Source: Alphaproteobacteria bacterium (GTDB taxonomy: Bacteria > Pseudomonadota > Alphaproteobacteria > CALKHQ01). Taken from it: DNA of 64,000 nt. The position numbers and the translations under genes were made by a program. Location of the stretch: the NCBI GenBank assembly GCA_965227515.1, contig CBDDFZ010000001.1, positions 1,760,001-1,824,000 on the forward strand. The letters run 5' to 3'. Positions 33,706-34,099 of this stretch are shown here, piece by piece. Below the pieces are notes generated by a model, which was not told the DNA's origin, ran no database searches, and saw only the letters and a program-made list of their open reading frames with translations. Positions within the stretch are counted from its first letter, which is position 1; each line of letters opens with the position of its first letter.

Positions 33706-33729
33706 TACCACCTCCGTCATGGTCAGCAT

Positions 33730-33884
33730 CTGGTCTGCACGCCGGATTGCATGCGGGCGAAAAGCCCATACTTCCGTTCGCGTGTACGACCGCGACGCCG
33801 GCGGGTCCGAGATCCTCACGGTCGCATAGACCAATCCATTACTCGGAGTGCCCGTCGGCGTCCCCTCCCTACCAAGAAGGGAGA
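33730..33884 (-). ncRNA. Predicted IS110 bridge RNA (5' hairpin, target-binding loop, donor-binding loop)
   Basis: Guides AATGGAT and GAGGATC match the target; ACGGAAG and CATGCAATC match the donor junction; all sit in internal loops of long stems. Ends are approximate. Confidence 0.85.
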
Positions 33885-34099
33885 AACCAAACATGCAATC
33901 CATTCCACCGTTCGCGCGATGCCTTGAATGGATCCTCGACGCGGCGCGCGGAATAGTTTCCGGGCGCGCCGGTCAAGGATGACAAGGGTGTTGGTGAGGG
34001 GGCGCAGACACACGGCACCGACACAGGTCAGGAACCTGTGCGCGGCGCTCTAAGCGCTTGCACGAGTTCCACCCATAGTCGCCCGACCATATGCCCCAA

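What the first reader, a model, noticed from the sequence alone, without database searches (positions are those of the whole stretch)
33706..33900. Fully readable IS110 bridge RNA whose four guides match its own REP target and donor junction
Seen: on the minus strand the non-coding end upstream of the DEDD recombinase folds into three parts. (1) A 5' hairpin, CTCCCT-TCTTGGT-AGGGAG. (2) A stem GACGCCG..CGGG..TCCGAG / CTCGGA..CCCG..CGGCGTC enclosing an internal loop capped by GGTC-TATGC-GACC. Its left strand carries AATGGAT (33840-33834), identical to the left flank plus core of the reconstructed target (GGAATG-GAT-CCTCGG). Its right strand carries GAGGATC (33817-33811), the reverse complement of core plus right flank. 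(3) A stem GGTC..CACGC / GCGTG..GACC with inner hairpin GGGC-TTTTC-GCCC. Its loop carries ACGGAAG (33777-33771), identical to the element's right end, and CATGCAATC (33753-33745), complementary to core plus left end (circle junction CACGGAA-GAT-TGCATG). Established: this LTG/RTG plus LDG/RDG layout is the bridge-RNA architecture of the IS621-type IS110 RNA-guided recombinases. Inference: this is a distinct programmable recombinase orthologue with a GAT-containing core (IS621 uses CT) aimed at an alphaproteobacterial REP family. The system class is known; whether this orthologue is described was not checked.
Basis: partly seen in the sequence, partly recalled or inferred. Interest (0 to 1): 0.92.

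Follow-up and report, generated by a model that had tools for sequence, protein, structure and literature searches.

The report
IS110 element with readable bridge RNA
A small jumping gene of an already known RNA-guided type carries an RNA whose loops spell out both its own ends and the repeated sequence it inserts into; it is a clean new example of a known system, not a new kind.

Summary
On the minus strand a 1154-bp IS110-family element (33897-32744) sits inside a REP unit. The reconstructed target AATGGATCCTC occurs 48 times unoccupied in the genome. The 168-nt left end folds into a 5' hairpin plus two stem/internal-loop modules. The four loop segments match the left flank, right flank, right end and left end with the strand rule described for IS621.

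The key test was covariation. I found 79 metagenomic and 3 genomic relatives (50-64% protein identity) carrying the same RNA. In them all four guides change together with flanks and ends (0 of 2000 permutations reach the observed match, for each guide). Stems keep pairing through compensatory changes (29 of 40 pairs). The recombinase has the DEDD residues and the serine, and passes the NCBIfam 'IS110 family RNA-guided transposase' cut-off.

One refinement: 'GAT' is best read as G at position 7 plus an A/G-T core dinucleotide. The two bases 3' of RTG and RDG fit IS621-type handshake guides.

RNA expression, protein binding and mobility are untested. Verdict: new member of a known kind, modest interest.

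The parts
33900..33906 (-). Left target half (LT, positions 1-7 in IS621 numbering): GGAATGG, part of the interrupted REP unit
   Evidence: identical in sense to the LTG over AATGG
33898..33899 (-).
   Evidence: inferred by analogy with IS621
32744..33897 (-). Whole IS110-family element, 1154 bp including the right core copy; a second copy lies at C1:1350249-1351405
33890..33895 (-). Weak -10-like hexamer CATGTT in the left end, 17 nt from the right-end -35 box once the element is circular
   Evidence: geometry conserved; 3 of 6 to consensus, so weak
33865..33883 (-). 5' hairpin CTCCCT-TCTTGGT-AGGGAG
   Evidence: helices 1-2; all 6 pairs show changes on both sides
33794..33862 (-). Target-binding module: outer stem GACGCCG..CGGG..TCCGAG / CTCGGA..CCCG..CGGCGTC around an internal loop, with inner hairpin GGTC-TATGC-GACC (33832-33820)
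33834..33840 (-). Left target guide (LTG) AAUGGAU, same sense as left flank plus core
33812..33817 (-). Right target guide (RTG) GAGGAU, complementary to AT-CCTC
33810..33811 (-). Proposed handshake guide of the target loop, CU, complementary to donor positions 6-7 (AG)
   Evidence: CU in 62 of 63, AG in 58 of 63; analogy
33732..33791 (-). Donor-binding module: stem GGTC..CACGC / GCGTG..GACC with inner hairpin GGGC-TTTTC-GCCC (33767-33755)
33771..33777 (-). Left donor guide (LDG) ACGGAAG, same sense as the right end up to position 7; the next two bases (UA) do not match the core
33746..33753 (-). Right donor guide (RDG) CAUGCAAU, complementary to AT-TGCATG (core plus left end)
33744..33745 (-). 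Proposed handshake guide of the donor loop, CC, complementary to target positions 6-7 (GG)
   Evidence: CC in 63 of 63, GG in 57 of 59
32761..33729 (-). Recombinase gene, 322 aa: DEDD RuvC-like domain plus Tnp domain; D18, E62, D104, D107, S244 present
32759..32764 (-). -35 box TTGACA in the right end, overlapping the stop codon
   Evidence: TTGAC present in 59 of 61 relatives
32746..32752 (-). Right end terminus (LD, positions 1-7) ACGGAAG
32744..32745 (-). Right copy of the proposed core dinucleotide AT
32690..32743 (-). Right target half and the rest of the interrupted REP unit (CCTCGGCGCTGCGCCC...GGCCAAGGATGAC)
33928..33990 (+). Intact inverted partner REP unit beginning ATGGATCCTCG, an unoccupied copy of the target 30 nt from the insertion
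   Evidence: C1:1793928

Best explanation
This is a complete IS110-group insertion sequence, 1154 bp with two copies in the genome. It most likely moves by bridge-RNA-guided recombination, as shown for IS621.

Shown from sequence and comparison:
- The element sits in a REP unit between ...AATGG-AT and AT-CCTC..., with no duplication beyond the shared bases.
- Its 168-nt left end encodes a structured RNA with two internal loops.
- The 5' side of loop 1 has the sense of the left flank. The 3' side of loop 1 is complementary to core plus right flank.
- The 5' side of loop 2 has the sense of the right end. The 3' side of loop 2 is complementary to core plus left end.
- Across relatives all four segments covary with their DNA partners, and the stems covary with each other.

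Inferred by analogy with IS621:
- The element excises as a circle. This joins a right-end TTGACA -35 box to a weak left-end -10 and drives the RNA.
- A recombinase tetramer holds the RNA, which pairs with both strands of the REP target and of the circle junction.
- Top strands are cut after the T of an A/G-T core dinucleotide by Ser244 in a composite DEDD site, then exchanged.
- The CU and CC dinucleotides 3' of RTG and RDG then pair with donor AG and target GG (handshake), and bottom strands resolve the junction.

Whether this copy is expressed or mobile today is not shown.
For: Protein:
- Pfam DEDD_Tnp_IS110 plus Transposase_20.
- NCBIfam NF033542 'IS110 family RNA-guided transposase', 178.2 bits against a cut-off of 140.
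- IS621 chain 8wt6_A at E 7.8e-23 over residues 13-318, and ISCro4 at 2.6e-22.
- D18, E62, G65, D104, D107, S244 and G245 are present in both copies.

Anatomy and target:
- Junctions and guides at the given coordinates.
- A second copy with a different left flank (GCGATG-GAT) and the same right half-site.
- 48 unoccupied AATGGATCCTC sites.

RNA structure:
- The consensus fold of 4 orthologues gives the three modules.
- On 80 distinct sequences, 94.7% of cells are paired against 87.0 +/- 0.3 in shuffles, and against at most 45.4% when partners are slid. Of 40 pairs, 29 show changes on both sides.

Occurrence in relatives: the RNA is found upstream of the gene in 79 of 80 metagenomic relatives and in all 4 genomic ones tested.

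Guide-DNA covariation, own pairing against 2000 permutations (0 reach the observed value in each case):
- LTG non-core: 4.21 of 5 against 2.92 +/- 0.11 (58 unique events).
- RTG non-core: 3.50 of 4 against 2.12 +/- 0.11 (48 events).
- RDG against the left end: 4.90 of 6 against 4.32 +/- 0.13 (20 combinations).
- LDG against the right end: 5.49 of 6 against 4.85 +/- 0.07 (51 combinations).

Handshake pattern: CU in 62 of 63 against donor AG in 58 of 63; CC in 63 of 63 against target GG in 57 of 59.

Junction promoter geometry: TTGAC in 59 of 61, and a 17-nt spacer in 47 of those 59.

Conservation between copies: the RNA region has 1 difference in 167 nt between the two copies, against 25 in the 969-nt gene.

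Mechanistic reference points come from PMC11208160 (passages) and PMC11208158 (passages).
Against: - There is no direct evidence of transcription. No RNA run holds the stretch, and the promoter scan finds no sigma-70-like site in the integrated state.
- The junction -10 is weak (CATGTT, 3 of 6 to consensus).
- The circle-junction 15-mer is absent from the assembly (0 hits). This is expected for an assembly and so not informative.
- Only 2 of about 50 perfectly matching sites are occupied. The two copies differ at 26 of 1157 positions, 12 of them non-synonymous. Recent activity is therefore not indicated.
- The LDG does not match the core in this element (UA opposite AT). Across relatives it matches position 8 in 34 of 63 and position 9 in 11 of 63. 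This differs from the published IS621 statement that all four guides include the core.
- The permutation tests do not correct for relatedness of the elements. The alignment used for the stem counts was fitted to the model.
- Most relatives aim at one REP type (CGTGG-AT-GGCC), so the number of independent guide changes is smaller than the row counts suggest.
- Loop columns are not more variable than the rest of the RNA.
Confidence: 0.9

Rival explanations
1. The element is a bridge-RNA IS by descent but is now an immobile relic. The RNA is still readable, yet the copies no longer transpose because of a weak promoter, disabling substitutions or host control.
For: - There are only 2 copies although 48 perfect 11-nt sites are free.
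- The copies differ by 2.2%, including 12 amino-acid changes.
- Another organism's contigs carry the copy-2 junctions, so that insertion is not recent (loose ends of X2).
- No promoter-like site is found in the integrated state.
Against: - Both reading frames are open and all catalytic residues are intact.
- The structured RNA is identical in both copies, while the gene carries 25 differences.
- Low copy number and weak expression from integrated copies are also reported for active IS621 (PMC13626964, abstract only).
Confidence: 0.2
2. The matches reflect protein-recognised subterminal repeats or REP-derived sequence captured in the left end. The folded region would then be only a 5' leader that regulates transposase translation, with no RNA guidance.
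For: - The start codon lies 2 nt after the last stem, so the structure could affect translation.
- An 8-nt subterminal inverted repeat exists (TGTTTGGT in the left end, ACCAAACA in the right end).
- Each single 7-nt match is reached in 3-6% of shuffles.
Against: - A leader or protein-site model does not predict four segments in the IS621 order and strand rule.
- It does not predict that each segment changes with its own DNA partner across relatives.
- It does not predict the handshake pattern.
- The protein belongs to the family for which the RNA requirement was shown in vitro (PMC11208160, passages).
Confidence: 0.03
3. The core is a true trinucleotide GAT with a 3-nt stagger. This would be a mechanistic departure from the 2-nt core of IS621.
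For: - GAT is present at both junctions of both copies and in 53 of 63 right junctions and 49 of 59 left junctions of relatives.
- LTG, RTG and RDG all cover the three bases.
Against: - The G at position 7 is explained by the handshake layout. The base 3' of the RTG and RDG core readers is C in all but 1 of 63 relatives for the RTG and in 63 of 63 for the RDG, and the next base discriminates donor A from target G at position 6. This is the pattern described for IS621.
- T is near-invariant and the preceding base varies A/G, as for IS621 positions 9 and 8.
- Cleavage positions cannot be read from sequence.
Confidence: 0.1

Closest known systems
IS621 (Escherichia coli) recombinase and bridge RNA; PDB 8wt6 (PMC11208160, PMC11208158)
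   Same: - DEDD RuvC-like domain plus Tnp domain with a catalytic Ser-Gly.
- Long left end encoding an RNA with target- and donor-binding loops.
[quoted passage not shown]
- Dinucleotides 3' of RTG and RDG fit handshake guides.
- -35 box in the right end and -10 in the left end.
- REP-type target.
   Different: - The relationship is distant (phmmer E 7.8e-23).
- No Rfam family links the RNAs, and the RNAs were not compared directly here.
- The core is A/G-T rather than CT. AT and GT are tolerated by IS621 experimentally.
- G occupies position 7 in both donor and target, so the first handshake base can pair before and after exchange.
- The LDG usually does not read the core.
- LTG 7 nt and RTG 6 nt here, against the nine-base LTG and four-base RTG used for IS621.
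- The element is 1154 bp and the recombinase 322 aa.
ISCro4 / IS622 (Citrobacter rodentium); PDB 9t56 (10.1101/2025.05.14.653916, passages)
   Same: Same family and architecture; matched at E 2.6e-22.
   Different: It has a CT core and is 88% identical to IS621 according to the preprint. It is as distant from this element as IS621 is.
REP-targeting IS110 elements of Pseudomonas putida: ISPpu9 (PMC12288879, abstract in search listing) and ISPpu10 (10.64898/2026.03.19.712850, abstract)
   Same: These are IS110-family elements that insert into repeated extragenic palindromes. For ISPpu10 a stem-loop next to the target adds specificity.
   Different: - Different hosts, and their sequences were not compared here.
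- In this element the REP stem lies on the 3' side of the core.
- Both occupied sites are of the CCTCGGC subtype, which makes up 11 of 73 free sites. With n = 2 this is only a weak hint of a similar extra determinant.
ISMex17-family IS110 elements of Methylorubrum and rhizobial plasmids
   Same: Nearest named relatives in the plasmid collection, annotated as IS110-like ISMex17 family transposase.
   Different: Only 39-42% protein identity. Their left ends were not examined.
Second IS110 element of the same genome (family B, 4 copies)
   Same: Same layout, including the GGUC...GACC inner hairpin followed by GU. Its guides read its own flanks: RTG GGGAGAG against CT-CTCCC and LDG ACAGUCGCU against ACAGTCG-CT.
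   Different: It is 39-40% identical, has a CT core, and targets another REP family. The covariance model scores it only 22 bits.

Membership tests
IS110 family RNA-guided recombinase (IS110 group) | N-terminal DEDD RuvC-like domain and C-terminal Tnp domain, above curated thresholds | tested here: met
   Pfam PF01548 at 48 bits (cut-off 29) and PF02371 at 64.7 bits (cut-off 21.3). NCBIfam NF033542 at 178.2 bits (cut-off 140).
IS110 family RNA-guided recombinase (IS110 group) | Catalytic residues equivalent to IS621 D11, E60, D102, D105, S241 | tested here: met
   D18, E62, D104, D107 and S244 (followed by G245) align to the IS621 motifs. They are invariant in 4 orthologues and present in both copies.
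IS110 family RNA-guided recombinase (IS110 group) | Long non-coding left end and short right end (the IS1111 group has the reverse) | tested here: met
   The left end is 168 nt (33897-33730). The right end is 14-15 nt after the stop codon. Criterion from PMC11208160, Extended Data Fig. 10 legend.
Bridge RNA (IS621 type) | Structured RNA with two stem-enclosed internal loops, supported by covariation | tested here: met
   94.7% of cells paired, and 29 of 40 pairs changed on both sides. The alignment was fitted to the model, which favours the structure.
Bridge RNA (IS621 type) | Loop 1: the 5' side has the sense of left target plus core, and the 3' side is complementary to core plus right target | tested here: met
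   7 of 7 and 7 of 7 for the window copy; 6 of 7 and 7 of 7 for copy 2.
Bridge RNA (IS621 type) | Loop 2: the 5' side has the sense of right end plus core, and the 3' side is complementary to core plus left end | tested here: met
   The RDG meets this fully: 9 nt, covering the core. The LDG matches the right end through position 7 (7 nt) but does not match core positions 8-9, so the core part of this feature is not met by the LDG.
Bridge RNA (IS621 type) | Guides covary with target and donor across orthologues | tested here: met
   0 of 2000 permutations reach the observed match for each of the four guides. Relatedness was not corrected.
Bridge RNA (IS621 type) | Handshake guides 3' of RTG and RDG complementary to positions 6-7 of the non-cognate DNA | tested here: met
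   CU against donor AG, and CC against target GG. These positions hardly vary in the family, so this is a fit and not covariation. Position 7 also pairs with the cognate DNA.
Bridge RNA (IS621 type) | Shared core dinucleotide at both junctions; conservative recombination without further duplication | tested here: inconclusive
   GAT is shared at both junctions. Which two bases lie between the cuts cannot be read from sequence. The middle base differs between the two junctions in 8 of 59 relatives.
Bridge RNA (IS621 type) | Sigma-70 promoter reconstituted across the circle junction | tested here: inconclusive
   A perfect -35 TTGACA lies in the right end at 17 nt from CATGTT, which matches the -10 consensus at 3 of 6. 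The geometry is conserved (TTGAC in 59 of 61; 16-18 nt spacer in 58 of those 59). No promoter is found in the integrated state.
Bridge RNA (IS621 type) | The RNA is expressed, binds the recombinase and is required for recombination | not testable with these tools
   No RNA run is listed. This needs bench work.
Rfam curated RNA family | Match above a gathering score | tested here: not met
   the only match is sX15 (RF02234) on the opposite strand, 21.5 bits against a gathering score of 55, E 0.8. No bridge-RNA family matched the stretch.

The most novel reading that the evidence does not exclude
This soil and alphaproteobacterial subfamily may run a modified version of the IS621 pairing logic. 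It has an A/G-T core, and a fixed G at position 7 of both donor and target, so the first handshake base pairs before as well as after strand exchange. In IS621, cognate handshake pairing blocks exchange. The left donor guide mostly ignores the core (position 9 matched in 11 of 63). If these features tune directionality or efficiency, the element would be a compact (322 aa, 1.15 kb) bridge system. Its design rules would differ from IS621 and IS622. It would also be naturally orthogonal to the CT-core IS110 that shares its cell.
Probability: 0.2. Interest if true: 0.55.

Novelty: new member of a known kind. Interest (0 to 1): 0.35.

Why it matters
It is a worked natural example in which every part of a bridge-RNA system can be read from sequence and checked against about 80 relatives: target, donor, four guides, probable handshake guides and junction promoter. 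It adds a compact orthologue with a non-CT core and a defined, abundant REP target. That orthologue could be tried as an orthogonal recombinase. The subfamily alignment gives concrete positions to mutate, namely position 7, the handshake bases, and LDG positions 8-9. For genome annotation, it shows that the left ends of such elements and the REP family they occupy can be annotated together. It does not open a new class of mechanism.

Tried and rejected
- Rfam: no bridge-RNA family matched. The only hit was sX15 on the opposite strand at E 0.8, treated as chance.
- Single-sequence fold: z = -2.3. It pairs the element terminus with the RDG, which is a by-product of the guide being complementary to the left end, so I relied on the consensus fold instead.
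- Genome-contig scan with the single protein: 121 stretches matched, only 4 relatives, and only one usable (L037).
- Order-level genome search: 0 of 3 other genomes matched at E <= 1e-50.
- Class-level search: 3 of 400 other genomes matched.
- Plasmid collection: 54 records, all below 60% identity. These were not used for the RNA analysis.
- Column entropy: the guide columns are not more variable than the rest of the RNA. Most relatives aim at one REP type, so 'hypervariable loops' cannot be claimed.
- Promoter scan of the integrated element: none found.
- Sequencing runs: no RNA holder listed.
- Contigs of three DNA holders laid on the region: there were only REP cross-matches and contig breaks at the element ends. 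No clean empty-site joint and no circle junction was seen. The listed 'skips' join REP paralogues. The loose ends of run X2 match the flanks of copy 2.
- Subterminal inverted repeat across the family: only weak (4.74 against 4.43 of 8; 7 of 2000 permutations reach it).
- A preference of the two insertions for the CCTCGGC REP subtype rests on n = 2 and is left as a hint.
- Supplementary files of the papers are closed. I therefore could not check whether this orthologue is already in the IS110 database of PMC11208160, and I make no claim that it is undescribed.
- No structure or complex prediction was run. The sequence match to solved IS621 made it unnecessary.

Rows dropped before counts:
- Of the 88 alignment rows, I dropped 5: L014 and L015 (family B), the minus-strand hit in L102, L065 (target loop deleted) and L050 (fragment).
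- The left-side test used the 74 rows with a complete 5' end and at least 8 nt of flank (58 unique).
- The right-side test used rows whose right end was located by a match of at least 7 of 8 to the LDG (75 of 83). It left out L090, L110 and L114 (aberrant or missing target loop), giving 71 rows (48 unique).
- The LDG test located the right end through a match of at least 6 of 7 to the RTG (72 rows, 51 unique). A few of those placements are visibly wrong and were kept.
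Full report
WHAT IS THERE

Read on the minus strand, the region holds a compact mobile element. Its left junction is GGAATG-GAT followed by TGCATG (element starts at 33897). Its right junction is CACGGAA-GAT followed by CCTCGG (right GAT at 32746-32744). The element is 1154 bp.

It has one gene, 33729-32761, of 322 codons. A 168-nt non-coding left end lies in front of the gene, and only about 14 nt follow the stop codon.

The genome has a second copy at C1:1350249. It has a different left flank (GCGATG-GAT) and the same right half-site. A covariance model of the RNA finds exactly these two places in the genome.

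THE TARGET IS A REP FAMILY

The sequence obtained by removing the element is not hypothetical. In the 5.5-Mb, 67% G+C genome, AATGGATCCTC occurs 48 times and ATGGATCCTC 73 times. My own rough calculation puts about one occurrence expected by composition.

The listing shows a palindromic unit of the form ATGGAT-CCTCGGG-loop-CCCGAGG-ATGAC and longer-stemmed variants. These units are often in inverted pairs.

One unoccupied unit on the second replicon (C2:282917) is identical to the window's right flank for about 50 nt. An intact inverted partner unit lies 30 nt from the insertion (33928 onward, plus strand). The element boundaries and the reconstructed target are therefore sound.

THE PROTEIN

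The protein carries both Pfam domains of IS110 transposases. It passes the NCBIfam equivalog 'IS110 family RNA-guided transposase' at 178.2 bits against a cut-off of 140.

It matches the solved IS621 recombinase over nearly its full length (E 7.8e-23), and ISCro4 as well. The residues aligned to the IS621 catalytic set are D18, E62, D104, D107 and S244-G245. They are invariant in four orthologues and present in both copies.

THE RNA

The modules are:
- a 5' hairpin;
- a long stem enclosing an internal loop capped by GGUC...GACC;
- a second stem enclosing a loop capped by GGGC...GCCC.

A covariance model built from these four sequences found the RNA directly upstream of the gene in 79 of 80 metagenomic relatives (50-64% identity) and in all genomic ones tested.

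On the resulting alignment of 80 distinct sequences:
- 94.7% of cells form standard pairs, against 87.0 +/- 0.3 in column shuffles;
- sliding the partners by 1-3 columns gives at most 45.4%;
- 29 of 40 pairs show changes on both sides.

The alignment was fitted to the model, which favours the structure, but the margin is large.

DO THE GUIDES READ THE DNA?

For the window alone the four matches (7, 7, 7 and 9 nt) are individually only moderately unusual. They were reached in 61, 120, 77 and 1 of 2000 dinucleotide shuffles. Jointly they are not expected: the summed length of 30 was never reached (maximum 26), and all four matches of at least 6 nt occurred together in 2 of 2000 shuffles.

The decisive evidence is comparative. 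In relatives the loop sequences differ and their flanks differ with them.

| Element | LTG | Left flank | RTG | Right junction |
|---|---|---|---|---|
| Genome G072 | GUGGGU | TGGGT | GGCCAUC | GAT-GGCC |
| Genome G124 | CCGGGGAU | CCGGGGAT | CUGGAUC | GAT-CCAG |
| Locus L057 | UAUGGAU | TATGGAT | GGGGAUC | GAT-CCCC |

The donor side behaves the same way:
- right ends ACGGTAG, ACGGGAG, ACAGAAG, ACGAGAG and ACGGTCG each face a matching LDG;
- left ends TGCTTG, TGTATG and CGTATG face RDGs changed to match.

Own pairings compared with 2000 random re-pairings among unique events:

| Guide | Observed match | Permuted mean |
|---|---|---|
| LTG non-core | 4.21 of 5 | 2.92 +/- 0.11 |
| RTG non-core | 3.50 of 4 | 2.12 +/- 0.11 |
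| RDG against left end | 4.90 of 6 | 4.32 +/- 0.13 |
| LDG against right end | 5.49 of 6 | 4.85 +/- 0.07 |

No permutation reached the observed value in any of the four tests.

Two caveats apply. Related elements are not independent. Most relatives aim at one REP type (CGTGG-AT-GGCC), so the number of independent changes is well below the row counts. In addition, the loop columns are not more variable than the rest of the RNA.

A second IS110 element in the same genome (four copies, 39-40% identical) has the same layout. Its guides spell its own CT-core target in a different REP family.

THE CORE

For IS621, the passages seen state the following:
- the core is the dinucleotide at positions 8-9;
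- the second base (T) is almost invariant and the first is variable;
- AT, GT and TT cores also work;
- the top strand is cut after T9;
- the two RNA bases 3' of the RTG and RDG core readers are handshake guides, which pair with positions 6-7 of the other DNA after strand exchange.

The subfamily fits this frame. Positions 7-9 are GAT in 53 and GGT in 6 of 63 right junctions. In elements with GGT the RTG and RDG change to ACC. This gives an A/G-T core preceded by G.

The bases after the RTG core readers are CU in 62 of 63, and donor positions 6-7 are AG in 58 of 63. The bases after the RDG core readers are CC in 63 of 63, and target positions 6-7 are GG in 57 of 59. In the window these are 33811-33810 and 33745-33744.

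I therefore read the core as AT (33899-33898 and 32745-32744), with the G belonging to position 7. This rests on analogy, because cut sites cannot be read from sequence.

Two departures from the IS621 description remain:
- Position 7 is G in both partners, so the first handshake base can pair with its own DNA too.
- The LDG matches core position 8 in only 34 of 63 and position 9 in 11 of 63. In this element it matches neither.

EXPRESSION AND ACTIVITY

The right end carries a perfect TTGACA overlapping the stop codon. In a circle it would lie 17 nt from CATGTT in the left end.

This geometry is conserved: TTGAC is present in 59 of 61 relatives, with a 17-nt spacer in 47. However, the -10 is weak, at 3 of 6 to consensus. 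A start about 7 nt downstream would fall at the foot of the 5' hairpin.

The integrated copy shows no promoter-like site. No RNA data exist for this stretch, and contigs of DNA runs gave nothing clean.

The two copies differ at 26 of 1157 positions: 13 synonymous, 12 non-synonymous, and one non-coding at 33887 outside the structure. The structured RNA is identical in both copies. Both copies look functional but not recently duplicated. Present-day mobility is open.

COMPARISON AND NOVELTY

The system works like IS621 and meets the sequence-testable defining features of the IS110-group bridge systems. The exceptions are LDG-core pairing, which is not met here, and the core cut positions and junction promoter strength, which remain inconclusive. 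Expression and RNA dependence cannot be tested here.

PMC11208160 analysed 5,511 RNA-target and 2,201 RNA-donor pairs (legend seen). REP targeting is reported for ISPpu9 and ISPpu10 (abstracts). The kind is therefore known.

This element is a distinct orthologue: at most 64% identity to any relative found, and 41% to the nearest named family, ISMex17. I could not check the supplements of the published database, so I do not claim that it is undescribed.

The most novel reading left open is that the subfamily's position-7 and LDG features reflect altered handshake or directionality rules. I put that at about 0.2.

VERDICT

This is a new member of a known kind, with an interest score of 0.35.

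Noticed in passing
G000 C1:85241, C1:2520699, C1:3321422, C2:1183204 (loci L013-L016): A second IS110 element is present in four copies (39-40% protein identity). It has a CT core and inserts into a different REP family (CCAGCC-CT-CTCCCCCACCCGGCC...). Its left end has the same loop layout, with guides matching its own flanks. Two orthogonal bridge systems therefore seem to coexist in one cell.
   Followed up: partly
G000, about 20 places (loci L017-L036, e.g. C1:1655473, C2:1238765): A third, high-copy IS110-type family (25-28% identity over the C-terminal half). Its copies end next to a different palindromic repeat (GCCCGGATG...AATCCGGG). Its boundaries and any guide RNA were not worked out.
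   Followed up: partly
window 33928-33990 (+) and 32690-32746 (-); genome-wide list: REP family ATGGAT-CCTCGGG-ACAAG-CCCGAGG-ATGAC with longer-stemmed variants, at least 73 units. Units are often in inverted pairs around a TCGCGCGA-like centre. Relatives in other genomes use the same design with another stem (CGTGGAT-GGCCGGG-ACAAG-CCCGGCC-ATGAC), and the IS guides follow the local variant.
   Followed up: partly
window 32739-32743 and copy 2 right flank: Both occupied sites are of the CCTCGGC subtype, which makes up only 11 of the 73 free ATGGATCCTC sites. With two events this is a weak hint of a determinant beyond the 11 nt read by the guides.
   Followed up: no
window 33886-33893 and 32752-32759 (-): An 8-nt subterminal inverted repeat (TGTTTGGT in the left end, ACCAAACA in the right end). 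It is 7 of 8 in copy 2. Across relatives the signal is weak.
   Followed up: yes
window 33722-33867 (+): Rfam sX15 (a Xanthomonadaceae sRNA) aligns end to end with the antisense of the bridge RNA region at 21.5 bits, E 0.8. This is probably chance. It may be worth checking whether sX15 loci lie in IS110 left ends.
   Followed up: no
loci L053, L059-L061, L064, L070, L072, L073, L080, L089 (downstream of the recombinase stop): A subset of metagenomic relatives shares a conserved stretch after the stop codon (beginning ...ATGAG..GATCATGG...GCGCGCAGCCGGTCAAGGCCGGC) instead of the short right end. These elements therefore carry extra sequence before the right terminus.
   Followed up: no
loci L090 and L065: In L090 the inner hairpin of the target loop is replaced by a longer insert. 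In L065 the target-binding module is largely deleted while the donor module is intact. L065 is possibly a decayed copy.
   Followed up: no
run X2: Contigs of another organism's run carry both flanks of copy 2 joined to the element ends at about 97-99% identity. The copy-2 insertion is therefore shared beyond this genome.
   Followed up: no
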